From: Paludibacter sp.
GTDB taxonomy: Bacteria; Bacteroidota; Bacteroidia; Bacteroidales; Paludibacteraceae
Length of the DNA stretch: 47,571 nucleotides
NCBI GenBank assembly: GCA_030653695.1
Contig: JAURYY010000080.1
Coordinates: 1-47,571 of the forward strand
Direction: 5' to 3'
Shown in pieces: positions 725-46,580 of this stretch. Position numbers and translations under genes: made by a program. Under the pieces are notes generated by a model, which saw nothing but the letters and a program-made list of their open reading frames with translations, did no database searches and was not told the DNA's origin. Each line of letters starts with the position of its first letter. Within the stretch, counting starts at the first letter, position 1.

Positions 725-1102
725 ATGCAAACGCAAAGCAAAGCATTAAATTTTGAAGGACAAAATATCTATATTGGAATAGATGTTCATTTGAAGGGTT
801 GGAATGTGTCGATTTTCACAGAGCATCTACATCACAAGACCTTTAATCAGGTGCCTAAAGCGGAATCGTTATCAACTTATTTAAAGTTAAATTTCCCGAA
901 TGCGATTTACCATTCGGTATTCGAAGCGGGTTTTAGCGGATTAAATGCACACTATGGGTTTACAAATCCGGGCATAAACAATATTGTGATCAACCCTGCA
1001 GATGTGCCAACATCAGACAAGGAGCGAAGACGAAAAACGGATAAATTTGACAGCAGATTCTGTCATTCAGAGCGAAGCGATACCGATAACTATCGGCACT
1101 AA
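725..1102 (+). pseudogene. Truncated IS110-family transposase (N-terminal DEDD/RuvC-like domain only)
   Basis: Motifs YIGIDVH, FEAGFSG, VINPADVP and RKTDKFDS are present. Similarity stops at about 1057, where repeat sequence begins, and the C-terminal domain is absent. Confidence 0.85.
1061..1097. repeat. REP-like fragment TGTCATTCAGAGCGAAGCGA followed by a palindrome variant CCGATAACTATCGG (1083-1096)
   Basis: Read directly. The palindrome is one mismatch from CCGATAGCTATCGG. Confidence 0.7.
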
Positions 1103-1133
1103 TATTTTTTACCGGACAGCAATAATTTTTTTG

Positions 1134-1141
1134 TAAGTTTG
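1134..1141 (+). promoter_or_regulatory. Bacteroidota -7 promoter element (TAAGTTTG)
   Basis: Matches TAnnTTTG, 22 nt upstream of the ATG at 1164. Confidence 0.55.
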
Positions 1142-1163
1142 CAACGCATTAACAAGAAGCAAT

Positions 1164-1637
1164 ATGGATATCATACTGATTATTATTTCTGGATTTTTTT
1201 TAATTGTAGGATTTATTGGATGCGTTTTACCCATCATACCGGGTTTGCCATTGAGTTATTTGGGTATTATTTTTTTACATTTAACTGATAGAATTCAGTT
1301 TTCAACCCATTTTCTACTATTATGGGGTTTTATAGTAGTGATGATACAATTATTGGATTTTGTAATTCCGATTTGGGGAACAAAAAAGTTTGGTGGTAGC
1401 CGGAAAGGAGTTTGGGGAAGCACGTTGGGGTTGATTGTCGGGTTGTTTTTCGGACCGTGGGGTATTATTCTTGGACCGTTTGCGGGTGCTTTTCTGGGTG
1501 AATTGATGGCTGATAAAACACATAAAAACGCCGTTAAAGCTGCTTTTGGTTCTTTTGTCGGAATACTTTTCGGCACAATTGCAAAATTGATTGTAGCCGG
1601 ATTTCTACTGTATTATTATGTTACAGCATTTATTTAA
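1164..1637 (+). CDS. DUF456 (YqgC-like) membrane protein
   Basis: Hydrophobic 157-aa protein with GCVLPIIPG, KKFGGS..G.WG and GPF.GA.LGE motifs. Confidence 0.85.
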   Translation: MDIILIIISGFFLIVGFIGCVLPIIPGLPLSYLGIIFLHLTDRIQFSTHFLLLWGFIVVMIQLLDFVIPIWGTKKFGGSRKGVWGSTLGLIVGLFFGPWGIILGPFAGAFLGELMADKTHKNAVKAAFGSFVGILFGTIAKLIVAGFLLYYYVTAFI

Positions 1638-1643
1638 AAACAG

Positions 1644-1685
1644 ATAAAGAGGCAGTTTCAAAAAAAAGTTGAAAAGCCTCTTTAT
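1644..1685. terminator. Hairpin between convergent genes, probable terminator
   Basis: Inverted repeat ATAAAGAGGC...GCCTCTTTAT. Confidence 0.6.
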
Positions 1686-1763
1686 AGTTTAATGAGTAAT
1701 GAAAAACAATTATTATCACGTTCATTAGATGAAAATTGCTTGTATGTCAAGGCTTTGCTAAAT

Positions 1764-1789
1764 ATGCTCCTGATAGCTATCGGGAGCAT
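1764..1789. repeat. Palindromic micro-repeat copy (TCCTGATAGCTATCGGGA, 1768-1785) with the stem extended by ATGC/GCAT
   Basis: Read directly; one mismatch from the 18-bp consensus. Confidence 0.9.
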
Positions 1790-1819
1790 TAATAATTATG
1801 AATTTCTTAACTCTATTCT

Positions 1820-3178
1820 TTACGCCAGACTTTCTAAAATATCTTCCATCGTAGCCAACTTTTGTTCTCCTGTTTTCATGTTTTTCAACATTACTTTCCC
1901 TGCATTCATTTCAGTTTCGCCTACAATTGCAGCAAACGGTATGCACTTGTTGTCGGCATAACTCATTTGTTTTTTCATTTTGGCGGGTTCGGGGTAAATT
2001 TCGGCGTTTATACCTTTACTTCGCAATGCGCTAAGCCATGGCAAGCAATACATTAGTTCCTTTTCGCCAAAGCTGACAAAAAGAATTTGTGTGTTCTCTA
2101 ATGTGTTTTCGGGATACAGATTCAGTTGGTTCAGCACATCGTAAATGCGGTCGGCTCCAAATGAGATACCAACACCCGAAACGCCCTCCATACCAAAAAC
2201 ACCCGTCAGGTTATCATACCTTCCGCCGCCGGTAATGCTTCCCATTTCAACGTCTATCGCTTTTACTTCGAAAATGGCTCCCGTGTAATAATTCAGTCCA
2301 CGTGCCAGCGTCAAATCCAGTTCTATTTTTGTTTCCACCTGCATAGTTTGGCACAAACCGAAAATAGTTTCGAGTTCCGATACGCCTTTCAAGCCAATTT
2401 CAGAATCGGCTAAAACCTTTTTCAGTTCAGTAAGTTTTTCGGCATTCGTTCCACTTAGTTGCAGTATGGGTTGCAGTTTGGCAATGGCTTCTTGCGATAT
2501 TCCCTTCGATGCGATTTCTTCGGTTACTTTTTCTAATCCGATTTTATCAATTTTATCAATAGCAACGGTTATATCGGTTATATTGTCTGATTCGCCGATG
2601 ATTTCAGCAATCCCCGATAGCATCTTTCGATTGTTGATTTTTATCACTACGTTAATTTTCAGCCGGCGAAATACTTCGTCAACAATCTGTATCAGTTCTA
2701 ATTCATTTAGCAACGAATCGCTTCCCACCACATCTACATCGCATTGGTAAAACTCACGGTAACGTCCGCGTTGTGGGCGGTCGGCACGCCATACGGGTTG
2801 AATCTGGTACCGTTTGAACGGGAATGAAATTTTATCGCGGTTTTGCACCACAAAACGGGCAAAAGGCACGGTTAAGTCGTAACGCAAGCCCTTTTCGGAG
2901 ATTTTGTTGATCAGTTTTGCGCTGTTGCGTTCAAGGAGTTCTTCGTCGGTCAGTCCGTTCATAAAATCGCCCGAATTGGTGATTTTGAAGAGTAGTTTAT
3001 CACCTTCTTCGCCGTATTTCCCCATCAGTGTCGATAGGTTTTCCATAGCCGGCGTTTCAATCTGCTGAAATCCGTACAGCCGAAAAACATCTTTAATCGT
3101 ACTGAAAATATAATTGCGATTGACCATTTCTTGTGGCGTAAAATCGCGTGTTCCTTTCGGAATGGAAGGTTTTTGCAT
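1820..3178 (-). CDS. hisS: Histidine--tRNA ligase
   Basis: Motifs [35 protein letters not shown] and GGGRYD. Confidence 0.98.
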
Positions 3179-3190
3179 AATAAGTTTTAT

Positions 3191-3235
3191 AATGTGCTAA
3201 CTTGCTAATGTGTCTCAATAGCTATCGGGAGTGCT
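3191..3235. repeat. Degenerate AATGTGCT octamer array containing a palindrome copy (TCTCAATAGCTATCGGGA, 3213-3230)
   Basis: Read directly in the waaA-hisS junction. Confidence 0.8.
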
Positions 3236-3249
3236 CATGGCTATTGATT

Positions 3250-4470
3250 TTATGAATGAATCAATTTTTCTAATATCAATTTCGTTGCTCCGGTATTTTT
3301 CTTTACATAATCGCCGGCTATTTTTCCGGCTTCAATGTTTTTAAGCAATTTATCTAATTCTTTTTCAAGATCTTCGCAGTTGCCGATTGAAAAGCCGCCA
3401 CCTTCGGCTATCAGTTCTCGGGCTTCGCGGAATTTACCGTAATTTGGACCGAAAACAACAGGGATATTCCACACGGCTGCTTCGAGTGTGTTGTGAATGC
3501 CTGCACCGAAACCGCCTCCAATGTAAGCTATATGGGCATATCGGTAAATCGATGAGAGTAATCCTATGGTGTCAACAATCATACAATCGGCTATTTGAGC
3601 GGTCAATATGTCGGCTTGTGTGTAGCGTACACAATTCATGTCCACCAACTTTGTAATTCCCAAAATATGCGCTTCGTGAATTTCGTGCGGAACAAGTATC
3701 AGCTTCACATCGGTATGCGCTTTCAGGTAACGAATCAGCAGCTCTTCGTCCTTGGGCCAGGTGCTGCCTGCAACGATCACTTTTTTTGCACCATGTACAA
3801 ATGCTTCAACCAACGGAATCGATTTTGCTTGCTTTGCCAGATCCGTTACGCGGTCGAAGCGGGTGTCGCCGGCAACCGAAGCATTTTTAAACCCATGTTT
3901 TTCAAGCAGTTTAACTGAATATTCATCCTGCAAAAAAATATGGCTGAACATTTTCAGTAAGTTTCGATACCAAGCTCCATACCATTTAAAAAACAGCTGT
4001 GACGGACGAAAAATGGACGAAATTGAATAAACCGGTACATTGGCGGTTTTCAACGCCAAAATATAATTCGGCCAGAATTCATATTTAATAAAAATAACTT
4101 TCGAAGGGTTAACTAATTTTACAAATTGCTTAGCTGCGTCTGGTGTGTCGATTGGTAAATATGAAATAATATCAGCTCCTGCATAATTTTTCCGAATTTC
4201 GTAACCCGATGGTGAGAAGAAAGTCAACAATATTTTAGTTTCCTGATTTGCCCTTTTCAATTGCTCCATAACCGGACGACCCTGTTCAAATTCGCCTAAC
4301 GAAGCCGCATGAAACCATATATAATGGGCGTTCGGATCAATTTTTTCTTTTAAAATAGCATAAGCTTCGGATTGTCCAACATGGAGTTTTCGGGCTTTGT
4401 CATTGAAAAAGGAAGCAATGAAAATGCCTAATTTGAAAAAATTTATGCCGATGTTATATAGTAAATTCAT
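3250..4470 (-). CDS. waaA: 3-deoxy-D-manno-octulosonic acid (Kdo) transferase
   Basis: Motifs WFHAASLGEFEQ, KYEFWPN, GDTRFD, VAGSTW and HNTLEAA. Confidence 0.95.
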   Translation of the reverse strand: MNLLYNIGINFFKLGIFIASFFNDKARKLHVGQSEAYAILKEKIDPNAHYIWFHAASLGEFEQGRPVMEQLKRANQETKILLTFFSPSGYEIRKNYAGADIISYLPIDTPDAAKQFVKLVNPSKVIFIKYEFWPNYILALKTANVPVYSISSIFRPSQLFFKWYGAWYRNLLKMFSHIFLQDEYSVKLLEKHGFKNASVAGDTRFDRVTDLAKQAKSIPLVEAFVHGAKKVIVAGSTWPKDEELLIRYLKAHTDVKLILVPHEIHEAHILGITKLVDMNCVRYTQADILTAQIADCMIVDTIGLLSSIYRYAHIAYIGGGFGAGIHNTLEAAVWNIPVVFGPNYGKFREARELIAEGGGFSIGNCEDLEKELDKLLKNIEAGKIAGDYVKKNTGATKLILEKLIHS

Positions 4471-4584
4471 AACCCCAAAAATGAAATTATATTACTCATT
4501 GTATGAAAAAACAGATGCCGATTCTTTGTTTTTTTGCCACTCAAAAAAACCATTTATTGTTGATGGTTGAAGTGGAATTTAATT

Positions 4585-4620
4585 AAAAAAGGCATTTCAA
4601 AATAGCTTTTGAAACGCCTT
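4585..4620 (-). terminator. Intrinsic terminator after rpsO
   Basis: Stem AAGGCATTTCAAAA/TTTTGAAACGCCTT with an A6 run that reads as a U-tract on the minus strand. Confidence 0.75.
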
Positions 4621-4643
4621 CTTTAAAGTTCTGAAAGCTAAAA

Positions 4644-4913
4644 TTACTTTCTCAGACCTAATTCTTTGATAATTGCACGGTAGCGCGAAATTTCGGTGTC
4701 TTTCAAATAATTGAGAAGACGACGACGTTTTCCTACCAAAATTACAAGAGCGCGTTCTGTACTATAATCTTTTTTGTTTGACTTGAGATGTTCAGTCAAA
4801 TGGTTGATACGGTATGAAAACAATGCAATCTGGGCTTCTGACGAGCCGGTATCAGTGTTAGACTTTCCGTATTTACCAAAGATTTCCTGCTTTTTTTCAG
4901 CTGTTAAATACAT
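4644..4913 (-). CDS. rpsO: 30S ribosomal protein S15
   Basis: 89 aa with [28 protein letters not shown] and ELGLRK. Confidence 0.99.
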
Positions 4914-5004
4914 GTTAAATAATTAAATAATTAATAATTCGTAATTCATAATTAAAGAGTTAGTGTTGATCTTTTATCAATTATAGTTCTTTAATTTGAG
5001 TTTG

Positions 5005-5012
5005 CAAAGATA
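5005..5012 (-). promoter_or_regulatory. -7 promoter element for rpsO (TATCTTTG on the minus strand)
   Basis: CAAAGATA on the plus strand; exact TAnnTTTG match. Confidence 0.6.
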
Positions 5013-5039
5013 GGTTTTTAATTTTGAATAATAAAACCT

Positions 5040-5684
5040 TCAACCTTTTTTTCTCAAAAAAACATCTCGTAACGAGCCCTCTGCCCATTTTATACGAATT
5101 TTATCAAAATAAAGTTTCCAAATAGATGTAATAGAAACGCCAATGAGTGAACCAACAAGCACATCGATGGCAAAATGTTGCGATAAATAAATGCGCGAAT
5201 ATCCGACCAATGCTGCCAAAACGAAATACAGAAAGTGGATTGAAGGTTTTTTTGTGTAAAATGTTAAAACCATAAAAAATGCAAAAGCGGTAATGGTATG
5301 CCCCGAAGGAAAGCTGTTAGCTGAATGCAAATGCTCGCCTGCAATACGGTGTAGCTCAATTGCAGGGAAATGTTCGCTGAAATACAAAAGCGGGCGGGGG
5401 GCGTTAAATATTTGTTTTAAAACCACTGAAAATATCCCGCTAATCAGCAAAGATGCGAGCATAAAAAGTGCCATTCGATATTTATAAAATAACAATCCTG
5501 CAATTACCACAAAAGGAATCCAATCGCCCACATAAGTATAATAACGAAAAAATCCATCCCCTAACAATGAATTGAATGATGTCATCCAAAGATGCAAATC
5601 TGCTTTCGAGTTGCACAATATCAGCACCGTAAAAATCAGTACAAATAGGAAATAAGGTAAAAAAAAAGTGCTGTATTGTTTCAT
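5040..5684 (-). CDS. PAP2-family membrane phosphatase
   Basis: Motifs K-x6-RP, SFPSGH and SRIYLSQH-x3-D. Confidence 0.92.
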   Translation of the reverse strand: MKQYSTFFLPYFLFVLIFTVLILCNSKADLHLWMTSFNSLLGDGFFRYYTYVGDWIPFVVIAGLLFYKYRMALFMLASLLISGIFSVVLKQIFNAPRPLLYFSEHFPAIELHRIAGEHLHSANSFPSGHTITAFAFFMVLTFYTKKPSIHFLYFVLAALVGYSRIYLSQHFAIDVLVGSLIGVSITSIWKLYFDKIRIKWAEGSLRDVFLRKKG

Positions 5685-6340
5685 TTTTTTATTGCTCTAA
5701 GTATTTCTCTTTTTCCGGGAGGTCCGGGCAAGCGTTCGACCACAAATCCGGCTTCCTGCATAGCTCGGCGTACGCTGCCTTTGGCACAGTAGGTTGTCAG
5801 AATTGCTTGGGGGTTACAATGTTTAAAAACTTTATAAAACTGTTTGTCTGTCCACATTTCAGCTTGTTTTTCGGGCGAAAAAGCATCAAAGAAAACAACA
5901 TCATATTTTTCTGTCAATGGATATTGTGTAAAATCAACATGCAGTTTGTCGAGACAAAAATACGGTAAAATCTGTGTTTTGCAATTCCATTCAGAAGAAT
6001 GTAACCGTATAAAAGCATTTTTCAACTCCGGTGAATACCCATCTTTAAAATTCAATTGCAACGCCTTCTCAATTTCCACGGGAAAGTATTCAAGTGTTGT
6101 GTAATGAACTGTTTTTTTGCTTTTATGAGCTTCAACCATTGTTAAAAAAGCATTTAACCCTGTTCCGAACCCAATTTCTAACACGCAGATTTCCTGTTTC
6201 AGACATTGTTTCAATCCTGCGTCGATAAATATATGTTGCGATTCCTGTTTGGCTCCGTTTGTCGAATGATAACATTCGTTCAACAAAGGAACAAACAGCG
6301 TATGTGAACCATCTGCGGTAATCAATAATTCGGTATTCAT
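5681..6340 (-). CDS. mnmD: tRNA (5-methylaminomethyl-2-thiouridine) methyltransferase, MnmC N-terminal-like
   Basis: Motifs TADGSHT, YHS.NGA, LEIGFGTGLN, FFDAFSP and PGPPGKRE. The ATG at 6340 is preferred over the TTG at 6349. Confidence 0.88.
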   Translation of the reverse strand: MNTELLITADGSHTLFVPLLNECYHSTNGAKQESQHIFIDAGLKQCLKQEICVLEIGFGTGLNAFLTMVEAHKSKKTVHYTTLEYFPVEIEKALQLNFKDGYSPELKNAFIRLHSSEWNCKTQILPYFCLDKLHVDFTQYPLTEKYDVVFFDAFSPEKQAEMWTDKQFYKVFKHCNPQAILTTYCAKGSVRRAMQEAGFVVERLPGPPGKREILRAIKK

Positions 6341-6396
6341 GTTTTGCAAAAAAAAAAAGTAGATTTTGCTCCGTTAAAACTGTATTCAGGGTATTT

Positions 6397-7335
6397 CTAA
6401 AGTTCCCAAATATTTTCATAAGTGTAAAATCCACCCTGCAAAACCACATAAAGTCCTTTTGAAATACGTTGTCCGCGGTCTAGTGTTTTAATTTTAATCA
6501 TGTCGTCAACATCTAATTTCACTTCGGTAGCTTTCAGATTTTCATGAATCCGGAGTTTGTTTACTGATTTGGGAATAACCGATGTCCCACGCTGAATACC
6601 CCAGGCGAGTATAACCTGAACTTCGGTACAATTATGCTTTTGAGCTATCTCAATAATAATTTTTTCGGACTGAATTCCCTGCTCTGTGTTGATTAAGTGC
6701 CGGCTGCCAAGCGGCGAATAGGCAGTAACTAATATTTTGTTTTTCAGGCAATACTCCACAAGTGCCGGCTGCTGAAAATACGGATGAAGTTCTATCTGGT
6801 TTACTTCTGGTTTAATTTGGGAATTGAGCATCAGATTTTCTAACTTGGGAATATTGAAATTCGAAACTCCAATATGTCTTGCAAGTCCGTTTTTCGCAAC
6901 TTGCTCCATGGCTTCCCATGTTTTTTCGAGCGGGATTTCGGTAAGAGAAGCCAGATCTGCGACTGTTTTTACCTGTTCGTGTTCGGTTTTGAATGCTACG
7001 GGCCAGTGCATTAGGTATAAATCGAGATAATCGAGTTGTAAATCGCACATTGATTTCCGAATGGCAATTTCAACGCGTGCAGCGGCGTGATCGCTGTTCC
7101 ACAGTTTCGAAGTGATAAACATATCTTCGCGCTTTACAAGTCCATTTGTAAATGCATCGGTGAGTGCATTACCGATTTCTTTTTCGTTTCCGTAAATATA
7201 AGCACAGTCAATATGGCGGTACCCGGCATTAATTGCATTAATCACAGCATGATACACTTCGCCTGGTTTCGATAGCCATGTGCCCAGACCGAACTTCGGA
7301 AAACTGTTACCGTTTTTGAAAAATAAATCATTCAT
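6397..7335 (-). CDS. Aldo/keto reductase
   Basis: Motifs GLGTW, GYRHIDCA..Y, FITSKLWN, LYLMHWP, IGVSNF and VIPKS. Confidence 0.95.
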   Translation of the reverse strand: MNDLFFKNGNSFPKFGLGTWLSKPGEVYHAVINAINAGYRHIDCAYIYGNEKEIGNALTDAFTNGLVKREDMFITSKLWNSDHAAARVEIAIRKSMCDLQLDYLDLYLMHWPVAFKTEHEQVKTVADLASLTEIPLEKTWEAMEQVAKNGLARHIGVSNFNIPKLENLMLNSQIKPEVNQIELHPYFQQPALVEYCLKNKILVTAYSPLGSRHLINTEQGIQSEKIIIEIAQKHNCTEVQVILAWGIQRGTSVIPKSVNKLRIHENLKATEVKLDVDDMIKIKTLDRGQRISKGLYVVLQGGFYTYENIWEL

Positions 7336-7408
7336 TATAATAATAGATTTGCGTAATTGTTATTTTCAAATCAGAATTTTGTAATTTTGTCAAAAATACA
7401 AAAAAAAC

Positions 7409-7717
7409 ATGGAATTCATTTATTCAAACAATTTAGCAGGACTAATGGTTGGAATGGCTACGTTTATTATTATAGGAATTTTTCATCCCATAGTGATTAA
7501 AGCAGAATATTATTTTGGTGTCAAATGCTGGTGGGTGTTTGCCTTAGTAGGTTGTGCAGGGCTTATTGCATCATTATTTTTTGCAAATGTTATAGTGTCG
7601 GTTATTTTTGCTGTTATTGGTTTTTCTTCGTTTTGGAGCATACTCGAGATTTTCGAACAAAAAAAAAGGGTAGAGAAGGGATGGTTTCCTTCAAACCCCA
7701 AGAGGAAGAAAATTTAG
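7409..7717 (+). CDS. DUF4491-family membrane protein
   Basis: Motifs IG.FHPIVIKAEY.FG and EQKKRVEKGWFP.NPKR. TAATTTTG lies upstream at 7382-7389. Confidence 0.85.
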   Translation: MEFIYSNNLAGLMVGMATFIIIGIFHPIVIKAEYYFGVKCWWVFALVGCAGLIASLFFANVIVSVIFAVIGFSSFWSILEIFEQKKRVEKGWFPSNPKRKKI

Positions 7718-7892
7718 TATCTTTTTTCAAAGAACGCACGAAAGTAAATTGGATATTTGTTTCTCGAAAATATGTTCTCGTATAGGTATTTATGAAAAAT
7801 AATTTTCATCGGAAAAATATTTCATTTGAAAAATAAGAACCCGATTAGAAACAGTTTTACTGTTTTATTCTATTAAAAAAAACAAAAAATAA

Positions 7893-9852: not shown

Positions 9853-9912
9853 GGATTTAAAATCTCAAATTAAACTTTCAATACAAATTTAGTGTTAAAT
9901 AAATTTCCTGCA

Positions 9913-10024
9913 TCTTGTCTTGATTCTTGACTCTTGTCCCGATAGACTTCGCCGATAGCTATCGGCGTGAGCTCAGTCGAACGCTCAGTCGAACGCTATC
10001 GGGATGGCTCTTGGCTCTAATATC
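9913..10024. repeat. Composite nested palindromic repeat in a TTGACTC-like heptamer array
   Basis: TCCCGATA-GACTTCG-CCGATAGCTATCGG-CGTGA-(GCTCAGTCGAAC)x2-GCTATCGGGA at 9937-10004. An inverted homologue lies at 45912-46003. Confidence 0.9.
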
Positions 10025-10040
10025 CAGTATTGTTACATTA

Positions 10041-10649: not shown

Positions 10650-10727
10650 TAGTGTGCTAATTGATTAATTGTCAATTATAAATAATTAATTTGAAAAATA
10701 TGTTAGATAAATCAATTGCAAAAATAC

Positions 10728-10764
10728 AAAAAAATCCTGTAAAGCTATTTTACAGGATTTTTTT
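10728..10764. terminator. Intrinsic terminator downstream of purA
   Basis: AAAAAAATCCTGTAAA-GCTAT-TTTACAGGATTTTTTT. Confidence 0.8.
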
Positions 10765-10789
10765 GAAAACCAATCACCTATTCACCCAA

Positions 10790-10809
10790 CAATGGGGCAT
10801 GCCCCATTG
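10790..10809. repeat. Perfect 20-bp palindrome, REP-like
   Basis: CAATGGGGCATGCCCCATTG, 4 nt after the purA stop codon. Confidence 0.75.
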
Positions 10810-10813
10810 CTAA

Positions 10814-12082: not shown

Positions 12083-12120
12083 GTGTTTATTTAATTTAAA
12101 AGAACAAAAAACCACGAACC

Positions 12121-12153
12121 GTCCCGATAGCTATCGGCGAAGTCTCACGGGAT
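12121..12153. repeat. Partial composite palindromic repeat
   Basis: GTCCCGATAGCTATCGGCGAAGTCTCACGGGAT shares CCGATAGCTATCGGCGAAGTC with the composite at 45959-45979. Confidence 0.85.
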
Positions 12154-13701: not shown

Positions 13702-13715
13702 CAGTCGCAAAACAC

Positions 13716-20000: not shown

Positions 20001-20067
20001 CCATCAGTTTGTAAAGTTTGAAAGTTAAAAGTATAAACAAGGGTAAACTCAAACCTTCAAACTTTCA

Positions 20068-20139
20068 TCCCGATTCCCGATTCCCGATTCCCGATAGCTA
20101 TCGGGAATCGGGAATCGGGAATCGGGAATCGGGACGGGA
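20068..20139. repeat. Concentric palindrome (TCCCGAT)4-AGCT-(ATCGGGA)5-CGGGA
   Basis: Read directly; 20068-20127 is a perfect 60-bp palindrome. Confidence 0.97.
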
Positions 20140-21048: not shown

Positions 21049-21142
21049 TATTGTGGTTTCGTTTAATTGGTTTAAGCTATCGGTCAGCAAATCGTTTTTG
21101 ACAAAAAAATTGTATTTTTGTAGCAATTAAATCATTTGCCTT

Positions 21143-24074: not shown

Positions 24075-24110
24075 AACAATCCCGATAGCTATCGGAAAAA
24101 GAACAAAAAC
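24073..24110. repeat. Palindrome copy (TCCCGATAGCTATCGGA, 24080-24096) in an AGAACAA heptamer context
   Basis: Read directly in the xseA-folB junction. Confidence 0.9.
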
Positions 24111-29186: not shown

Positions 29187-29224
29187 GAGGTAAGAATCCA
29201 GATAGCTATCGGGAGAGGTAAGAA
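29187..29224. repeat. Palindrome copy (TCCAGATAGCTATCGGGA, 29197-29214) flanked by 10-bp direct repeats GAGGTAAGAA
   Basis: Read directly. Confidence 0.9.
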
Positions 29225-29320: not shown

Positions 29321-29357
29321 TCCCGGATTGTTCCGATAAATCGGAAATTTATAGGGA
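29321..29357. repeat. Variant palindrome TTCCGATAAATCGGAA (29331-29346) within degenerate outer arms TCCCG...ATAGGGA
   Basis: Read directly; near-identical arms with a 2-nt core. Confidence 0.6.
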
Positions 29358-34911: not shown

Positions 34912-34945
34912 TTACCAAATATTTTGTTACAATAACCTTATATGT

Positions 34946-35536: not shown

Positions 35537-35571
35537 TTAAGTCTTTATTTAATAGAAAAAGACAAATATTT

Positions 35572-38009: not shown

Positions 38010-38022
38010 AAAATTGAAATAA

Positions 38023-38511
<489 letters not shown>

Positions 38512-38530
38512 AACAAACAGTTAATTGTTA

Positions 38531-38562
38531 AGAAGCTCAAACGTTACTGCGTTTGAGCTTCT
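38531..38562 (+). terminator. Terminator of the V-ATPase operon
   Basis: AGAAGCTCAAACG-TTACTG-CGTTTGAGCTTCT. Confidence 0.75.
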
Positions 38563-38624
38563 CGTATTTTGGTTTTCATTCAAAAAAAGTTACTTTTGTG
38601 TAGTTATTACATGAAAAAAAAATA

Positions 38625-39491: not shown

Positions 39492-39587
39492 AGAACAGCC
39501 TCCAGCCCCTAAAGGGGATAAAAAAGTTAATTTGTTGATTTTGAGTTCAAATTTCTAACTTTATATTTCTTATTTCTAACTTAGTTA

Positions 39588-40745
39588 ATGTCTGAAAATA
39601 AAAAACAAATAGCAATTCTGGGTTCTACCGGTTCTATCGGAACGCAGGCATTAGCAGTTATAGCCAACAATAATTCGTTGTTTGAAGTGTACGCATTGAC
39701 AGCTAATAATCAAGTGGATATGCTGATTGAACAAGCGCGTAAGTTTCAGCCCGAAATGGTTGCCATAGCCAATGAATCGCATTATCTCAAACTTAAAGAA
39801 GCATTGTCCGATTTACCAATTAAAGTTTTTGCCGGAAGCGATTCAATAGCCCAAATTGCTGAAATGCAACCCATTGACATTATCCTTGCTGCCATGGTAG
39901 GTTATTCGGGATTAAAGCCAACCATCAATGCTATTAAAGCCGGAAAGAAAATTGCATTAGCCAACAAAGAAACATTGGTTGTTGCCGGTGAATTGATTTG
40001 TGATTTGGTGCTGAAACACAATTCGGTAATTATACCCGTTGATTCCGAACATTCAGCTATTTTTCAATGTTTGACCGGCGAAGGAAATAATCCTGTTGAA
40101 AAGCTGATTCTTACCGCTTCGGGAGGTCCGTTTCGAACAAAATCGATGCACGAACTGGAACATGTAACCAGTGCTCAGGCACTAAGGCATCCTAATTGGG
40201 ATATGGGCGCAAAAATTACTGTCGATTCGGCGAGTATGATGAATAAAGGTTTCGAAATCATTGAAGCCAAATGGCTTTTTGGCGTTTCGCCCGAACAAAT
40301 TGATGTGGTAGTTCATCCCCAATCTATTATTCATTCGATGGTTCAGTTTACCGATGGATCGATAAAAGCCCAACTCGGACTGCCGGATATGAAATTACCA
40401 ATTCAATATGCTTTTACTTATCCCGACCGAATTAAAACTAATTTTCCCCGTCTCGATTTTAATATTTGCGCTCAGTTCACTTTCGAACAACCCGATATGG
40501 AACGATTCCGAAATCTGGCTTTTGCTTATTATGCCATGGAAAAGGGAGGGAACATGCCTTGTATTCTGAATGCAGCGAATGAAATTGTGGTTGCGGAATT
40601 TCTGAAAGATAAAATAGGGTTTCTTCAAATGAGCGATATCATCGAAAAAGTATTAGCCAAAGCAGAATATATTGCCCATCCTGCTTATGAAGATTATGTA
40701 AAAACAGACACACTCGTTCGCAAACTTACAAAGGAGTTTATTTAA
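39588..40745 (+). CDS. dxr: 1-deoxy-D-xylulose-5-phosphate reductoisomerase
   Basis: Motifs LGSTGSIG, LANKE, PVDSEH, LTASGGPF, HPNW.MG.KIT.DS and NAANE. Confidence 0.98.
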   Translation: MSENKKQIAILGSTGSIGTQALAVIANNNSLFEVYALTANNQVDMLIEQARKFQPEMVAIANESHYLKLKEALSDLPIKVFAGSDSIAQIAEMQPIDIILAAMVGYSGLKPTINAIKAGKKIALANKETLVVAGELICDLVLKHNSVIIPVDSEHSAIFQCLTGEGNNPVEKLILTASGGPFRTKSMHELEHVTSAQALRHPNWDMGAKITVDSASMMNKGFEIIEAKWLFGVSPEQIDVVVHPQSIIHSMVQFTDGSIKAQLGLPDMKLPIQYAFTYPDRIKTNFPRLDFNICAQFTFEQPDMERFRNLAFAYYAMEKGGNMPCILNAANEIVVAEFLKDKIGFLQMSDIIEKVLAKAEYIAHPAYEDYVKTDTLVRKLTKEFI

Positions 40746-41019
40746 CTCAGAAAGAATATTTTTTTTCAGATAAAAGGGAATATATGACTAATTGACAGTG
40801 TCAGCATACAACAATCAAAAAATAACTATATTAATTACGCTTTTAGCAACAGTTGCAATACAAATGATAGTGCTAAACATAAACGCACGATATTTGTAGT
40901 ATTCGTATCTCCCCCAAAAGCATTTCTTTAGTTGATATGCTATGTCGGGATTTAGGTTTTGAAACGACATTATTCACAATTACTCTGAAAAAGATATAAT
41001 TCAGAGCAAATAAAAATTT

Positions 41020-42507
41020 ATGGAAACTTTTTTAATCAGAGCATTACAGTTAATTCTCAGTTTATCGATTTTGGTGTTTTTACACGAATTCGGTCATTTT
41101 TTCTTTTCAAGGCTTTTCAAAGTACGTGTTGATAAGTTTTATATGTTTTTCAATCCGAATTTTTCGCTGATACGGGCAAAAAAAATCAACGGGAAATGGC
41201 AGATTAGATATTTTGCAAAGAACGTGCCGGCAAATGAACGCCCCAAACACGATGCCAACGGAGATATTTTGCACGACTCGAAAGGCAAAACAGTGTATGA
41301 ACCCATCCCCTTAAATGAATTATCGGATGACGATTGGCGCAAATATCCCGAAACTACAGAGTGGGGTATCGGTTGGTTACCATTGGGCGGATATTGCAAA
41401 ATTGCCGGAATGATTGATGAATCGATGGATAAAACACTTATGGCTCAGGTACCTCAAACCTGGGAATATCGATCACGACCTGTATGGCAACGACTCCCGA
41501 TTATTATCGGTGGTGTGTTGGTCAATTTCATTTTGGCACTGGTCATTTATTCGGCAGTTCTCTTTACTTGGGGAAAGGAATATCTACCTTTTGAAAATGC
41601 CAAATATGGACTTAATTTCTCTCAAACATTTTTAGAAAATGGATTTAAAAACGGGGATAATATTATTGCAATTGATGGACAAACTGTTGAACAACGCTCA
41701 GATGTTATTGAAAGCATTTTAATTGACGGGAAACAAAATGTTACCCTGTGGCGCGATGGACAGAAAGTGGAAATACAACTTCCGTCGGATATTGCTCAGA
41801 AAGTATTAGCGAGTGAAGAATTAAATTTAGTTTCAGTACGTTACCCTTTCGTTATCGAAGAGGTCTCAGCCGGAAGTCCGGCTGCGGATGCTAAACTTCA
41901 GCAAGGTGACAGCATTGTTGGCATTAATGGGAAACATTTGTTCATATTTCAGGATATAGCTGCGGAGTTAGATGCCTCGAAAAACGCTAAAATCGAAATT
42001 TCGTATTTTCGTAACGGTCAGTTAATGCAATCTGAATTGCAGGTAACTGAAAACGGGAAACTTGGTGTGGGATTAAAATCACCATACCAGTTTTTTCAGA
42101 CTAAAAAAATCGAATATGGATTTTTTGAATCAATTCCTGCGGGCATAAGTCTCGGATGGGAAACACTTTCGAGTTATGTGAAACAATTTAAACTTGTGTT
42201 TTCAAAAGAAGGCGCTAAACAGCTGGGTGGTTTTGGGGCTATTGGAAAAATGTTTCCAAAATTTTGGGATTGGCAAATTTTTTGGTCCATGACGGCATTA
42301 CTTTCTATTATTCTTGCATTTATGAACTTTTTACCCATACCGGCTTTGGATGGCGGTTATGTGTTATTCCTGCTTTACGAAATGTTTACCGGACGAAAAC
42401 CTACCGATAAGTTTTTAGAGTATGCTCAAACAACCGGAATGCTACTTTTAATGGCACTTCTGATTTTTGCCAACGGCAATGATATTTTTAGGGCAATTTT
42501 TAAATAG
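41020..42507 (+). CDS. rseP: RIP metalloprotease RseP (M50) with PDZ domains
   Basis: Motifs HEFGH, PLGGY and NFLPIPALDGG. Confidence 0.96.
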   Translation: METFLIRALQLILSLSILVFLHEFGHFFFSRLFKVRVDKFYMFFNPNFSLIRAKKINGKWQIRYFAKNVPANERPKHDANGDILHDSKGKTVYEPIPLNELSDDDWRKYPETTEWGIGWLPLGGYCKIAGMIDESMDKTLMAQVPQTWEYRSRPVWQRLPIIIGGVLVNFILALVIYSAVLFTWGKEYLPFENAKYGLNFSQTFLENGFKNGDNIIAIDGQTVEQRSDVIESILIDGKQNVTLWRDGQKVEIQLPSDIAQKVLASEELNLVSVRYPFVIEEVSAGSPAADAKLQQGDSIVGINGKHLFIFQDIAAELDASKNAKIEISYFRNGQLMQSELQVTENGKLGVGLKSPYQFFQTKKIEYGFFESIPAGISLGWETLSSYVKQFKLVFSKEGAKQLGGFGAIGKMFPKFWDWQIFWSMTALLSIILAFMNFLPIPALDGGYVLFLLYEMFTGRKPTDKFLEYAQTTGMLLLMALLIFANGNDIFRAIFK

Positions 42508-42605
42508 TTGATTGGTTGATTGGTTAATTGGTTAATTCGTTAATTCGTTGATTGGTTAAATCGTTGATTGGTTTCCCGATAGCTATCGGGAGGTTAATTG
42601 GTTAA
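42508..42605. repeat. Tandem octamer array (TTRATTSG) interrupted by a perfect TCCCGATAGCTATCGGGA (42574-42591)
   Basis: Eight units at 42508-42571, then TT-[18-mer]-GG, then TTAATTGG TTAA. Confidence 0.95.
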
Positions 42606-42661
42606 CAGAAATCAAATGAAAAACTTAACTGATTTACCCATTAAAAAAAGCAATTATTAAT

Positions 42662-43021
42662 ATGAAACCTACAATTCTTTGTTACACTAAATGCGGAACT
42701 TGCCAGAAAGCCGAAAAATGGTTAAAAGCGAACAAAATTGTATATACTTATCGTCCAATAAAAGAAGAAAATCCAACGAAAGAAGAACTGACAGTTTGGA
42801 TTAAGAAGAGTGGTTTGCTTGTTAGTAAGTTTTTCAATACCAGTGGATTGCTTTATAAAGAAAAAAATATGAAGGATAAAGTGAAAACTTTGTCCGAAAA
42901 TGAATTGATTAATATTTTGGCATCAAACGGATTGATGGTAAAACGTCCGATATTGTGGTTTGGCGACAAAGTGCTGGTGGGTTTTAAAGAAGAAGAGTGG
43001 GAAGACTTATTTTCAAAATAA
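42662..43021 (+). CDS. ArsC/Spx/YffB-family thioredoxin-fold protein
   Basis: Motifs CGTCQKA..WL, FFNTSG..Y, VKRPIL and VGFKEEEW. Confidence 0.9.
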   Translation: MKPTILCYTKCGTCQKAEKWLKANKIVYTYRPIKEENPTKEELTVWIKKSGLLVSKFFNTSGLLYKEKNMKDKVKTLSENELINILASNGLMVKRPILWFGDKVLVGFKEEEWEDLFSK

Positions 43022-43052
43022 AGTTCGTAACAATACTTTTCAAAATAAAATA

Positions 43053-43083
43053 TGAGGCTGCCTGAATAAATCTGACAGCCTCA
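43053..43083. terminator. Hairpin between convergent genes
   Basis: TGAGGCTG...CAGCCTCA. Confidence 0.6.
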
Positions 43084-43107
43084 GTTGTTTATTTTGGACA
43101 TAAAAAA

Positions 43108-43752
43108 TCAAAATATAAGTTCTCCGAAATACTCGGGACAATGAAAATCAGGATTTTTTGTGTTAATAGCATTCCACGAAAGATAATGAGGTTTTGAACT
43201 TCCGTCGGCACATTTGTAGAAGTTGGCTGCGAGTTTATCTGGAAAGTTATTTATGTCAATACCCAAAACAGTAAACGGAATTTTAACCGTGAGTTGCCAC
43301 TCTGATTTCCCTTCTTTTTCAGTAAAAGTTTTGCGTCCTAACGAAGCATAGCGGTCGATTTTATTCATTTCTTCTGCTGTGAAAGGTGTAATATTTTCAT
43401 TGCGACTTATGCGTGAAGTTGCTAAGCAGGTACCTATGCAGTTGAATTCGAAATTCATGTACGCCTTTCTTTCGGCTAATTTGCAGAAGAATTCAACACA
43501 ACTGTCCTGCCACACCGGGTCGTGATCGTTTGCAAATTGAGCCCGAATATTTTCTTCTGTAACTTCAAAATAAATGAAAATTGCGTCATTCGAACGGGCT
43601 ATTTGAAAACCGCAGTCAGGTTTAACACCATACTGCTCAAGCCAGTTCACGGCATCAACTTTTTCGGGGTTTAAAATATTTAATATTCCGACAGCCATTT
43701 CTGCCGTTGCATTATCAAGAGCAGATAAATAATTGATTTTTAATGATTTCAT
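43108..43752 (-). CDS. Carbohydrate-binding family 9-like (DOMON-like) protein
   Basis: Motifs VWQDSCVEFF, Y.NFEFNC.G, ANFYKC.D and PDFH.PE.FG. Confidence 0.85.
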   Translation of the reverse strand: MKSLKINYLSALDNATAEMAVGILNILNPEKVDAVNWLEQYGVKPDCGFQIARSNDAIFIYFEVTEENIRAQFANDHDPVWQDSCVEFFCKLAERKAYMNFEFNCIGTCLATSRISRNENITPFTAEEMNKIDRYASLGRKTFTEKEGKSEWQLTVKIPFTVLGIDINNFPDKLAANFYKCADGSSKPHYLSWNAINTKNPDFHCPEYFGELIF

Positions 43753-43868
43753 TTTTTAGACTAAAGACAAAAACAAGAATGTGCTAATGTGTCCGTTCGA
43801 TAATGAGATAATTGACAATTATAATTGAACGCAAAACATAACACTTGAAATGTTAAACCCCAAACAAA

Positions 43869-45857
43869 TTAATTCCCCGGTTTATACTCCACAAATGCTT
43901 CGATAGCTTCGTAAGATGCCAACCCAAGTTTATTATACAGGTCGGCGGTGGCTTTATTTCGTTCTTCGGCACGCTGCCAGAACAGTCGTTCGTCGCCACC
44001 CATAAACGGAGCACTTTCCATTTGTGATTGATGTTTCAGAATTGAATTGCGTTTGCTGCGCAGTTGTTCGGGACTCATTGGTACAGCCATTTCAATGTGG
44101 TCTATTTCCCATTCAGCCCATGCACCTCTGTACATCCAGATTCGGCAATCCTTCATCCATTGTTCGTTTTTTAGTTCAGCAATAGCGGCTAAGGCAGCAT
44201 TCAGACAAACTTTATGTGTTCCGTGCGGGTCGGCAAGGTCGCCCGCAACAAATATCTGATGCGGTTCAATTTTAGTAAGCAATTCGATGGTTTTATGTAC
44301 ATCAATTTCAGTAAGTTTACCTTTTTGCACTTTACCGGTTTCGTAAAATGGTAAATCGAGAAAATGAATATTTTCAGGTTTTGCACCTACAAACCGGCAA
44401 GCTCCCCGTGCCTCTTCCCTGCGTATTTGCCCTTTAATATAAAGTATTTCACTTGAATCAGTATCGCCTGTACTTTTCTTGTTTTTTAAAAAATCCAGAG
44501 ATGAATCGAATATTGAAATTAAATTTTTGGAATCAGAGTCGTAGTTATTAATTAAATTTTTAACCACTGATATCGACCGAATTACTTCATCGTCACCAAC
44601 AGCAATATTGCCAGATGTCTGATAAACTACATGTACTTCATGTTTCTGATCAACCAAACGCTGGAATGTTCCACCCATCGATATTACATCATCATCAGGG
44701 TGGGGGCTGAAAATCACCACACGTTTCGGAAATGGTTTGGCTCTTTCGGGACGATGCGTATCATCTGCATCGGGTTTGCCCCCCGGCCAACCGGTAATGG
44801 TGTGCTGAAGGTCGTTAAAAATACGGATATTTACATCGTAAGCCGAACCGTAGAGCGAAAGAAGTTCATCAAGTCCATGTTGATTGTAGTCTTTATTGGT
44901 TAGTTTCAGAATAGGTTTATTGGTTTGCGTACATAACCACACAATGGCACGGCGAATCATTTTATCAGTCCAGTCGCACGGACCAACTAACCAAGGGTAA
45001 CTTAGACGGGTAAGCATTTGAGCAGCATCAAGGTCGAGTACTGCTTTGGCATTTTTGTGTATTTGTAATATTGATGCAGGAACGTTGTCGTCCACTTTTC
45101 CTTCAATTACTTCTTTTAAAATAGTAGCTTTGTATTCGCCCCAAGCCGACAGAATTACTTTCTTTGCATTAATAATCGTTGAAAGACCAATAGTGATGGC
45201 ACTTGCAGGAACTTCAGACATTGAATTGTAAAATTGCTTCAAATCACGCCTTGAAACATGGTCGAGCAACATTAAACGGGTAATTGAACTGACTTGAGAG
45301 CCGGGTTCATTGTATGCAATATTGCCTATCAAACCTATACTTACCAACACTAAATCGAGATTTCCGAAATTTTCAATTTGCTGTTCATATTTCCGGCAGA
45401 ATTCATAAATATTCGATCGGTCAATATTAAAATCGGGGGTGTAAAAATTTGCCGGATTGAAATCTACTTTGTTCAGCAAATGCTCCCGAAGTAGTCTTGA
45501 GTTTGAATGCTGTAGGGGGTTCGAAAGCGGGAAAAATTCGGTAACATTAAATACGATTACATTTGAAAAACTCAAGCCTTCTTTTTTGTGTAATCTTACA
45601 AGTTCAGCATAAACATCGAGGGGTGAAGAGCCGCCCGAAAGCCCGAGTACACAATTTTCGCCGGCATTTTTTTTGCTTATAATCAGTTCTGCTATTTCGC
45701 AGGCTATAACCCGAGCACCTTCTTTTTCATTATTATAAATCTCGGTACGGAGTTTTTCGTAACGTGTTTGACGCAGGTTCTCGAACGCATCCGAAGGTCG
45801 GTAATAACGTTCAGGAATACGCTCGAAAGTTATTTTTGAACTTAAATTGAAATTCAT
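43869..45857 (-). CDS. Glucosamine-6-phosphate deaminase-like domain fused to a PIG-L/LmbE deacetylase domain
   Basis: NagB-fold N-terminus (LSFSNV..FN, NEPGS, P.SILQ.H) and C-terminal FSPHPDDD and DPHGTH. Confidence 0.88.
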   Translation of the reverse strand: MNFNLSSKITFERIPERYYRPSDAFENLRQTRYEKLRTEIYNNEKEGARVIACEIAELIISKKNAGENCVLGLSGGSSPLDVYAELVRLHKKEGLSFSNVIVFNVTEFFPLSNPLQHSNSRLLREHLLNKVDFNPANFYTPDFNIDRSNIYEFCRKYEQQIENFGNLDLVLVSIGLIGNIAYNEPGSQVSSITRLMLLDHVSRRDLKQFYNSMSEVPASAITIGLSTIINAKKVILSAWGEYKATILKEVIEGKVDDNVPASILQIHKNAKAVLDLDAAQMLTRLSYPWLVGPCDWTDKMIRRAIVWLCTQTNKPILKLTNKDYNQHGLDELLSLYGSAYDVNIRIFNDLQHTITGWPGGKPDADDTHRPERAKPFPKRVVIFSPHPDDDVISMGGTFQRLVDQKHEVHVVYQTSGNIAVGDDEVIRSISVVKNLINNYDSDSKNLISIFDSSLDFLKNKKSTGDTDSSEILYIKGQIRREEARGACRFVGAKPENIHFLDLPFYETGKVQKGKLTEIDVHKTIELLTKIEPHQIFVAGDLADPHGTHKVCLNAALAAIAELKNEQWMKDCRIWMYRGAWAEWEIDHIEMAVPMSPEQLRSKRNSILKHQSQMESAPFMGGDERLFWQRAEERNKATADLYNKLGLASYEAIEAFVEYKPGN

Positions 45858-45911
45858 TATTTATTTTTTAAATAAGGTTAATTTATTTTCAGGGCAAGTT
45901 GTATAATGAAA

Positions 45912-46003
45912 GATATTAGAACCAAAAACAATCCCGATAGCGTTCGACTGATCTCACTCCGATAGCTATCGGCGAAGTCCATCGGGACAAGAGCCAAGAA
46001 CAA
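45912..46003. repeat. Composite nested palindromic repeat, inverted homologue of 9913-10024
   Basis: TCCCGATAGC-GTTCGACTGATCTCACT-CCGATAGCTATCGG-CGAAGTC-CATCGGGA (45932-45987) with CAAGAGC-type heptamer flanks. Confidence 0.9.
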
Positions 46004-46086
46004 TCCCGATTCCCGTCCCGATTTATCGCGAAAACCCAAACCCGAAACCCGAAACCCGAAACCCAGCATATTCTGATTTATCGGGA
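46004..46086. repeat. Cluster of TT-core palindrome variants and an AAACCCG heptamer array
   Basis: TCCCGAT-TCCCG-TCCCGATTTATCGCGA (46004-46031), (AAACCCG)3 at 46038-46058, and TTCTGATTTATCGGGA (46071-46086). Confidence 0.85.
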
Positions 46087-46580
46087 AAACGCGAAACAAT
46101 GATTGTATTAAATCATTTGATGTTGAATTTCATGCAAAAATAAAGAATTATTTTCAAATTATTCAATCTGAAAGGTACAATTTTTTTTGTAGGAATAATT
46201 CAAGAATAAGAATTGGACGCTTTATTAACCCATTAGCACAACTTGCTGATTAATAATTCCTTTTATTTCACCCACATTGTAAACAATTAAAACAGTAGGA
46301 TCGAAGGTGAAATTGAGTAATGAGCAAAAGTTAAACACAAGATGGAGTATAAAGTTCGTCAGGATTTGCTTGTTTGGAAAGTAGATAATCCTAATGGTGT
46401 GATGAACGCTATCGGCGAAGTATAGTCAATCAATTACCGATAAGTAAGATGTTGTAAAAAGAAATCTCTGAAAAAAGCCGGTATCAACTAACTTAGAAAA
46501 ATTAATTTTCAGCCGTTTGTGCCCGACTCTGTTCAGGAATTCTTTTTTATTTCAAGAAAATATAAACTGCGAATAGGAAA

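What the first reader, a model, noticed from the sequence alone, without database searches (positions are those of the whole stretch)
1083..46421. Dispersed 18-bp palindromic micro-element TCCCGAT-AGCT-ATCGGGA: candidate minimal mobile element system
Seen: full or near-full copies at 1083-1096, 1768-1785, 3213-3230, 9937-10004 (two nested), 12122-12137, 20068-20134, 24080-24096, 29197-29214, 42574-42591 and 45932-45987 (two nested). Variants with a 2-nt core lie at 29331-29346, 46016-46031 and 46071-46086, and half-sites at 21075-21083 and 46408-46415. I saw none in an intact CDS, although the window is mostly coding. The GC-richer motif stands out in AT-rich spacers, has no U-tract, occurs between both co-directional and convergent genes, and usually sits in degenerate 7-8-nt tandem arrays. 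Established: REP/REPIN repeats are spread in trans by HUH (RAYT) transposases and carry a GTAG-type tag, which this element lacks. Inference: it is an ultra-short non-autonomous element written into specific targets by an enzyme encoded elsewhere. I cannot confirm from here that it is undescribed.
Basis: partly seen in the sequence, partly recalled or inferred. Interest (0 to 1): 0.85.

Follow-up and report, generated by a model that had tools for sequence, protein, structure and literature searches.

The report
Eighteen-base jumping hairpin of Bacteroidota
An 18-base palindrome sits in about 200 places in this genome, where it overwrites 3-5 bases of the target instead of duplicating them, and it is likely moved by a tiny tRNA-linked nuclease, which would make it one of the smallest mobile DNA elements with a candidate enzyme.

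Summary
The repeat is real and mobile. The window has 8 copies within 3 mismatches (0.01 expected); the genome has 155 exact cores. Empty paralogues exist for 19 of 104 simple copies: the 18-mer replaces 3-5 bp (mostly 5), with no target duplication. It nests in itself and in a second, 25-nt element, and fills 8 of 11 diverged integrase copies at one site. It is patchy in the genus (54 of 102 genomes) and across the class (20 of 54), and absent from orthologous spacers, so it is not an operator. It fails the REP, MITE and Ssn-motif tests. The best candidate mover is a ~90-aa Slx1-like GIY-YIG nuclease whose gene ends in a tRNA copy carrying this hairpin (18 of 54 element-positive versus 0 of 48 element-free genomes). 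That link is correlational: not significant on a tree, absent from one complete 10-copy genome, and this genome's copy lacks the conserved arginine. Closest known: Nostoc SDR elements (paper not readable here). The scan noted related hairpins and the nuclease cassettes before on other DNA.

The parts
1081..1098 (.). Diverged 18-mer (TA..CA arms, AACT core) inside another repeat; replaces 5 bp relative to the empty paralogue on contig C115
725..1102 (+). Truncated IS110-like transposase ORF that ends at the 1081 copy (context, not part of the element)
   Evidence: NF033542, E 1.6e-6, below cut-off
1768..1785 (.). 18-mer, 1 mismatch, downstream of hisS; absent from orthologous spacers (0 of 17)
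3213..3230 (.). 18-mer, 2 mismatches, between kdtA and hisS; absent from orthologous spacers (0 of 19)
9937..10004 (.). Composite: outer 18-mer split at AG|CT by the 25-nt element, which holds a CG-armed 18-mer and a duplicated right half; beside a 7-nt array
12122..12152 (.). Remnant composite of 18-mer and 25-nt element
20068..20139 (.). Russian-doll nest: perfect 18-mer at 20089-20106 with stacked 7-nt and 5-nt arms of earlier copies; beside an 8-nt array
21075..21083 (.). Half-site remnant
24080..24097 (.). 18-mer, 1 mismatch
29197..29214 (.). 18-mer, 1 mismatch
29331..29346 (.). 16-nt variant with 2-nt core (27 exact cores of this variant in the genome)
42574..42591 (.). Perfect 18-mer at the end of an 8-nt array; folds as a 7-bp stem with 4-nt loop (-5.9 kcal/mol as DNA)
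45932..45987 (.). Composite of 18-mer and 25-nt element (opposite orientation to 9937)
46004..46031 (.). Nested arms plus 16-nt variant, beside a 7-nt array
46071..46086 (.). 16-nt variant, 1 arm mismatch
46404..46421 (.). Half-site remnant of an 18-mer/25-nt composite

Best explanation
The 18-mer is a non-coding mobile palindrome that lands in many kinds of site and replaces 3-5 bp of the target without duplicating it, and it is likely moved in trans by a small Slx1/UPF0213-type GIY-YIG nuclease of the tRNA-linked cassettes in which the same hairpin sits. Shown: mobility, the replacement rule, nesting, repeated use of one site in diverged paralogues, a junction bias on both strands, and the physical link between hairpin and nuclease gene. 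Inferred: the nuclease would cut at the base of the extruded hairpin to free an 18-nt piece and nick the target twice, 3-5 bp apart; host repair would trim the ends and seal the hairpin in. Once in one member of a repeat family, the element would then spread to the same site in other members by short-tract conversion. Also inferred: the element began as the substitute anticodon arm of the cassette's dead tRNA copy.
For: Empty paralogues for 19 of 104 simple copies: 5 bp lost in 10, 4 in 4, 3 in 2, and 3 sites in heptamer arrays that equal 5 modulo 7; the 16 non-array sites fall in about 11 target families. 8 of 11 integrase copies are filled at the same site while their 49-nt left flanks are 63-98% identical (mean 77%). 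Both junctions avoid T next to the element (9% here, n=64; 6% in other genomes, n=96; background 33%) and favour a pyrimidine at -3 (74-75% against 48-50%); the T avoidance repeats in viral contigs (9% against 30%, n=38). Copy number runs from 0 to 155 in the genus, and the high-copy state changes 15 times on an 80-genome hisS tree. The tRNA-Met-linked GIY-YIG of this genome has relatives in 18 of 54 element-positive and 0 of 48 element-free genomes, and in 12 of 21 with 5 or more copies against 6 of 81 below. Either tRNA-linked query hits 20 of 21 genomes with 5 or more copies and 10 of 48 with none. In these cassettes the ORF's last codons and stop lie in a tRNA copy whose anticodon loop carries the hairpin. 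Across the class, 29 of 30 best loci lie by a tRNA and 20 of 30 match one of five hairpin patterns. The model (pLDDT 91) resembles HIGLE, UPF0213 and Slx1 (probability 0.99-1.0, best E 0.006). A related small GIY-YIG gene sits between its own short inverted ends in an integrase gene with no target duplication.
Against: No activity was measured. On the tree the nuclease goes the same way as high copy number in about 3 of 6 independent pairs and the other way in 0.1-0.2, which is not significant (median p 0.25-0.5); for mere presence against either query there is no signal (3.5 versus 2.5). Part of the co-occurrence is circular, because the cassette itself holds a copy. This genome's only tRNA-linked copy has Ser in place of the Arg kept in 14 of 15 aligned proteins, and a truncated hairpin. 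One complete genome with 10 copies (G335) has only GIY-YIG genes without a tRNA nearby; G118 (15 copies) has only a broken one; G061 (48 copies, 87% complete) has no match. At class level the contrast is weaker: 16 of 20 against 15 of 34. Cassette loop variants are not the ones that are dispersed in G002, G068 and G081 (only the first matches are listed), so the cassette is not simply the template. Y1 transposase counts also correlate (rho 0.30; 53 of 54 against 35 of 48). Of 149 ORFs beside 80 sampled copies only 2 were GIY-YIG. The pyrimidine bias at -3 did not reach significance in viral contigs (64% against 56%). Self-nesting loses 6 bp, outside the 3-5 range, if the older copy was the AGCT type.
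Confidence: 0.5

Rival explanations
1. The element is mobile but another enzyme moves it (a different small GIY-YIG, a Y1/HUH transposase, a DUF559- or Vsr-type nuclease); the dead tRNA copies beside the tRNA-linked nucleases are only tolerated landing pads, or gain immunity to that nuclease from any insert.
For: The element hits the tRNA copies at several positions (D-loop, anticodon loop, T-loop) and other hairpin families do the same. G335 and G061 have many copies without the clade. Y1 counts correlate weakly. Cassette variants differ from dispersed variants.
Against: No other enzyme family recurs among 149 neighbours (no Y1_Tnp, 1 Vsr). The hairpin stem is kept while the loop drifts in cassettes 59-76% identical in protein. 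No GTAG or CGTC tag.
Confidence: 0.27
2. No dedicated enzyme: copies arise by polymerase template switching and short-patch gene conversion between repeats, and the palindrome perfects itself by fold-back copying.
For: Many targets are themselves repeats. Both arms change together (138 of 154 exact cores have both outer bases paired), which fold-back copying would also give (established knowledge of quasi-palindrome correction, recalled). Arm stacks such as 20068-20139 can grow by slippage.
Against: The same 18-mer enters unrelated targets that share no flank sequence, with a narrow 3-5 bp loss and a two-sided junction bias. Flanks beside the integrase site stay diverged up to the junction. 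Copy number jumps between near relatives.
Confidence: 0.13
3. Spread through RNA: the hairpin is joined into transcripts and written back by a reverse transcriptase, as I recall was proposed for Nostoc SDRs.
For: tRNA loops and terminator loops are among the targets; the hairpin is stable.
Against: No RVT_1 match in this genome; RT in 7 of 15 high-copy against 19 of 48 element-free genomes. Empty sites are not consistently loops, and several are unstructured. Copies lie in all gene orientations, 22 of 181 non-ORF copies between divergent genes.
Confidence: 0.07
4. A transcription-factor operator, terminator or assembly artefact.
For: Perfect palindrome, mostly intergenic (181 of 218 outside crude ORFs).
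Against: Absent from 0 of 19 and 0 of 17 orthologous spacers; empty alleles, nesting and in-gene copies; present in cultured isolates and a complete chromosome; copies carry point mutations.
Confidence: 0.03

Closest known systems
Small dispersed repeats (SDR) of Nostoc (Elhai et al. 2008, Genome Res 18:1484; not held; title and one passage seen in PMC4390886; the rest recalled)
   Same: Very small mobile repeats; as recalled, nested in themselves and set in heptamer arrays. SDR5 inserts at a fixed point of a palindrome (passage), as the 25-nt companion does at AG|CT here.
   Different: 18 bp and a perfect palindrome against 21-27 nt (recalled); another phylum; replaces 3-5 bp; a candidate enzyme is linked here. 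Sequence identity to SDRs could not be checked.
Ssn nucleases with NTS/SRM repeats (Chenal et al. 2025, PMC11893778; seen: abstract, passages, section 8)
   Same: A single-domain GIY-YIG gene beside a hairpin that occurs in hundreds of copies; SsnA cuts single-stranded DNA a few bases from its hairpin; the authors note an IS-like layout.
   Different: 0 of 216 copies lie in an SRM match; the paper's text has no mention of tRNA or Bacteroid-; movement of the repeat was not shown there. Clade membership of our nuclease was not tested.
GTAG- and CGTC-tagged REPs and REPINs with RAYT (PMC3733652, seen: passages and part 1 of Results; PMC3116915, seen: passages)
   Same: Short extragenic palindromes in high copy, thought to be spread in trans.
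   Different: No tag, no doublets, no Y1 transposase among neighbours; REP-like repeats are among its targets.
Phage T4/T6 SegB, a free-standing GIY-YIG homing endonuclease in a tRNA cluster (PMC13096335, seen: listing and passages)
   Same: GIY-YIG gene beside tRNA genes, cutting tRNA-containing DNA and driving tandem amplification; our cassettes also form tandem arrays.
   Different: SegB moves or amplifies kilobase segments by homologous recombination; no dispersed micro-element is described in the passages seen. No match of our protein in the phage collection.
Prokaryotic MITEs (PMC11602168, seen: passages)
   Same: Non-autonomous, mostly intergenic, inverted ends.
   Different: MITEs are 50-800 bp with 2-10 bp target duplications; this is 18 bp with a target deletion.

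Membership tests
GTAG/CGTC REP | GTAG or CGTC tag at one end of the stem | tested here: not met
   7 and 8 of 432 arms
GTAG/CGTC REP | Stem of 6-13 bp with short loop, extragenic, high copy | tested here: met
   7-bp stem, 4-nt loop; 181 of 218 outside crude ORFs
REP/REPIN-RAYT | Cognate repeat clustered beside a RAYT gene | tested here: not met
   No Y1_Tnp among 149 ORFs beside 80 sampled copies; RAYT flanks were not surveyed one by one
MITE | 50-800 bp with 2-10 bp target site duplication | tested here: not met
   18 bp; 3-5 bp lost at 16 of 16 non-array empty sites
Ssn/SRM | Repeat matches the SRM degenerate motif | tested here: not met
   0 of 216 copies (motif)
Ssn/SRM | Single-domain GIY-YIG gene next to the cognate hairpin | tested here: met
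Ssn/SRM | Nuclease belongs to the cd10448 clade and cuts ssDNA site-specifically | not testable with these tools
   No CDD library; activity needs an assay
SDR (Nostoc) | Mobile: empty and filled sites | tested here: met
SDR (Nostoc) | Nested in copies of itself (recalled) | tested here: met
   7+18+5 form 33 times, double nest 17 times
SDR (Nostoc) | Often within heptamer arrays (recalled) | tested here: inconclusive
   14 of 64 and 13 of 96 by a strict test
SDR (Nostoc) | Length 21-27 nt (recalled) | tested here: not met
   18 nt; the companion element is 25 nt
SDR (Nostoc) | Sequence or structure matches a described SDR family | not testable with these tools
   Paper not held
Transcription-factor operator | Conserved position in orthologous spacers | tested here: not met
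   0 of 19 and 0 of 17; relatives are distant (hisS 84-90% protein identity)
Described RNA families (Rfam) | Match at gathering score | tested here: not met
   Only one tRNA in the window

The most novel reading that the evidence does not exclude
A new kind of transposition: a ~90-residue GIY-YIG nuclease, with no transposase or reverse transcriptase, cuts an anticodon-arm mimic out of its own dead tRNA copy and has it patched into target DNA in place of 3-5 bp. The 18-mer would be the smallest mobile element with a known mover, and sister hairpins across Bacteroidota would be passengers of sister nucleases.
Probability: 0.35. Interest if true: 0.92.

Novelty: new variant of a known kind. Interest (0 to 1): 0.72.

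Why it matters
How repeats far too short to encode anything multiply in bacterial genomes is an open question; for SDR-type elements I know of no identified enzyme (recalled). This case gives a precise insertion rule (replace 3-5 bp, no duplication, biased junctions) and a named, small, easily expressed candidate enzyme, so the question becomes testable in one experiment. The element also disrupts integrase and transposase-like genes near their active-site codons, breaks assemblies, and adds short peptides to annotated proteins. If the nuclease does write a short palindrome into DNA, that is unusual chemistry for the GIY-YIG family.

Tried and rejected
Literature: four motif strings found in 0 papers; searches for REP/GIY-YIG/Bacteroidetes, SDR terms, GIY-YIG with tRNA arrays and palindromic insertions with target deletion gave no description of this element. 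The library lacks most subscription papers and the SDR paper itself; supplements of the REP and Ssn papers were not read and could list the motif. Close relatives for empty orthologous alleles: none in the genus, best about 75% DNA identity over the stretch. Sequencing runs: one holder, probably the source sample, no RNA holder listed; its contigs show the same copies and no empty allele, which is not independent. Reverse transcriptase as mover: rejected. Target = hairpin loop: not general; flanks do not pair here and pair only weakly in other genomes. Outer two bases copied from the target: rejected, because different paired arms occur at one site. Cassette as direct template: not supported. 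An autonomous copy with a gene between the two arms: none recognised by eye among 22 ORFs flanked on both sides. Sequence search of solved structures gave only chance hits; NCBIfam had no family for the nuclease. DUF559, GxxExxY and four-helix-bundle counts were not run across genomes.
Full report
OBSERVATION. Eight places in the window match the 18-mer within 3 mismatches, against 0.01 by chance, and every listed variant and half-site is present. The 3.69-Mb genome holds 103 exact 18-mers and 155 exact, 218 near-exact 14-nt cores. Of those 218, 37 fall in crude ORFs of 60 aa or more, many of which look like spurious extensions; the other 181 lie between genes in all orientations. Rfam finds only a tRNA in the window. 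The host is a Bacteroidota by inference from type IX secretion tails in window proteins.

DISTRIBUTION. Exact cores occur in 54 of 102 genomes of the genus, from 1 to 155 copies, in 20 of 54 sampled genomes of the same class, and as single hits in 2 of 166 genomes of other classes. Viral contigs gave 76 stretches. Dominant variants differ between genomes: a 12-nt core prevails among the listed matches of G081 and G068. On a hisS tree of 80 of the 102 genomes the state '5 or more copies' changes 15 times. The two copies flanking hisS are missing from 0 of 19 and 0 of 17 orthologous spacers. This pattern fits bursts of a mobile element and not an operator.

INSERTION RULE. Relatives were too distant to align spacers, so I used paralogues within the genome. 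Of 104 simple copies, 19 have an empty paralogue. The 18-mer replaces 5 bp in 10, 4 bp in 4 and 3 bp in 2; the 3 sites in heptamer arrays equal 5 modulo 7. The 16 non-array sites belong to about 11 target families, so they are not all independent. There is no target duplication. tRNA-derived targets in other genomes lose 3 bp (D-loop), 4 bp (T-loop) or 5 bp (anticodon loop) by comparison with intact genes at the same loci or, for some D-loop cases, with recalled tRNA sequence. Targets share no long consensus, but both junctions avoid T next to the element (9% of 128 sides here, 6% of 192 elsewhere; background 33%) and favour a pyrimidine three bases out (74% and 75%; background 48% and 50%), with counts matching a two-sided model. 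The T avoidance repeats in viral contigs; the pyrimidine bias there is not significant. Empty sites are not consistently hairpin loops. Both outer bases pair in 138 of 154 exact cores, with several different paired arms, and different arms occur at the same site, so they do not come from the target.

NESTING AND REPEATED SITES. The element lands in itself: left arm of 7, new 18-mer, right arm of 5 occurs 33 times and the double nest 17 times. A second, 25-nt element enters cleanly at AG|CT, in the centre of the 18-mer or of itself (43 of 47 near-exact copies have AG on the left and CT on the right), and the 18-mer in turn replaces 5 bp within it. Eight of 11 copies of a tyrosine-integrase-like gene (named from its recalled motif) are filled at the same 5 bp just before the conserved Tyr codon, although their left flanks average 77% identity. 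Either the site is hit repeatedly or filled alleles convert empty ones over very short tracts. One nested copy is in frame in the linker of a DAHP-synthetase-I/HAD fusion ORF.

CANDIDATE MOVER. No family dominates the 149 ORFs beside 80 sampled copies (2 GIY-YIG, 1 Vsr, no Y1_Tnp), as expected for action in trans. Reverse transcriptase is not found here and does not track copy number. Looking at close pairs of copies led to small GIY-YIG genes beside tRNA genes. The layout is fixed: intact tRNA, a 75-95-codon ORF, then a partial copy of that tRNA carrying a hairpin of this family. In the tRNA-Met type the last codons and the stop lie inside the tRNA copy, and the 18-mer replaces 5 bp of the anticodon loop; the stem is kept and the loop drifts. 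In the tRNA-Val and tRNA-Pro types the whole 17-nt anticodon arm is swapped for the hairpin, which suggests where an element of this size came from (inference). This genome has one such gene, at C287:13949-14233. Its relatives occur in 18 of 54 element-positive and 0 of 48 element-free genomes; with the tRNA-Val query added, in 20 of 21 genomes with 5 or more copies and 10 of 48 with none. Across the class, 29 of the 30 best loci are beside a tRNA and 20 match one of five hairpin patterns, 4 of them the AGCT core. The predicted fold is Slx1/UPF0213-like, though no match reached E 0.001.

AGAINST THAT LINK. The tree test points the same way but is not significant, and shows nothing for mere presence against either query. 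The cassette holds a copy itself, which inflates low counts. The class-level contrast is 16 of 20 against 15 of 34. G335, closed and with 10 copies, has no tRNA-linked member; G118 has a broken one; G061 has no match. This genome's protein has Ser for the conserved Arg and a cut-off hairpin, so the burst must predate its decay or come from a copy missing in the assembly. Cassette loop variants are not the dispersed ones in three genomes examined. Y1 transposase counts correlate too, more weakly (rho 0.30 against 0.49 for all GIY-YIG).

MECHANISM. I commit, at about even odds, to this: the small nuclease recognises the hairpin as SsnA recognises its repeat, frees it by cutting at its base, and nicks targets twice 3-5 bp apart; repair trims the ends and seals in the palindrome. 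A perfect palindrome suits a two-sided reaction because both strands are the same sequence. Every enzymatic step here is inferred. That the element is mobile and replaces 3-5 bp I hold at about 0.93.

COMPARISON AND NOVELTY. It works like the Nostoc SDRs as I recall them, but I could not read that paper and cannot call it a member. It fails the defining tests for tagged REPs, MITEs and SRM repeats. Nine literature searches found no description; four motif strings appear in no held paper. The scan's own notes describe tiny hairpin modules in Bacteroidota with unknown mover and the GIY-YIG/tRNA cassettes. I reached the cassettes, before seeing the latter notes; they are not independent support. 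One note says such modules lodge after TT in hairpin loops; for this element T is avoided at the junction and loops are not required. What this report adds is the replacement rule, the junction bias and a quantified, still unproven, link between the dispersed element and the nuclease. Verdict: real, a new variant of the very-small-mobile-repeat kind, interest 0.72.

Noticed in passing
window 9946-9995 and 45941-45977; about 47 near-exact copies in the genome: A second micro-element of 25 nt that inserts without loss or duplication at AG|CT, in the 18-mer and in itself; diverged copies also sit in CCCCTTTAGGGG-type repeats.
   Followed up: partly
L216 (G000:C245:11346-11635), contig ends C296 and C299; L182 (G101): An 87-aa GIY-YIG gene bounded by its own short inverted ends, about 290 bp in all, set between two codons of an integrase-like gene with no target duplication: looks like an autonomous mini-element.
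   Followed up: partly
G000 C10, C13, C32, C34, C80, C83, C95, C278: Eight diverged integrase-like gene copies disrupted at the same site just before the conserved Tyr codon.
   Followed up: partly
L219 (G000:C261:3195) with empty paralogue on C284: The 18-mer shifts the frame of a transposase-like gene just before an NHVH (HUH-type, recalled) motif.
   Followed up: partly
L355 (G000:C188:16899-18338, minus strand): A 479-aa DAHP-synthetase-I/HAD fusion ORF whose linker contains a 30-bp nested copy in frame; whether the insertion created the fusion was not checked.
   Followed up: no
window 725-1102: Truncated IS110-like ORF ending at a CGTC-type repeat that carries a copy of the element.
   Followed up: partly
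L166, L184, L260, L270, L274, L275: Other hairpin families (CCGCC..GGCGG and CCTGCC..GGCAGG types) occupy tRNA copies beside related nucleases, suggesting several parallel element families.
   Followed up: no
L217, L218, L165, L167-L170, L421-L438: Other small GIY-YIG genes are flanked by CGTC/SRM-looking repeats, probably Ssn-type loci in Bacteroidota.
   Followed up: no
window 9918-9936, 20049-20067, 42507-42573, 46032-46064: Degenerate 7-8-nt tandem arrays in spacers, of several unrelated units; their origin is unexplained.
   Followed up: no
L154 (G049:C475:14500-17200): Three 132-bp tandem units, each with the element, upstream of an ORF that begins like a Cas9 (recalled motif).
   Followed up: no
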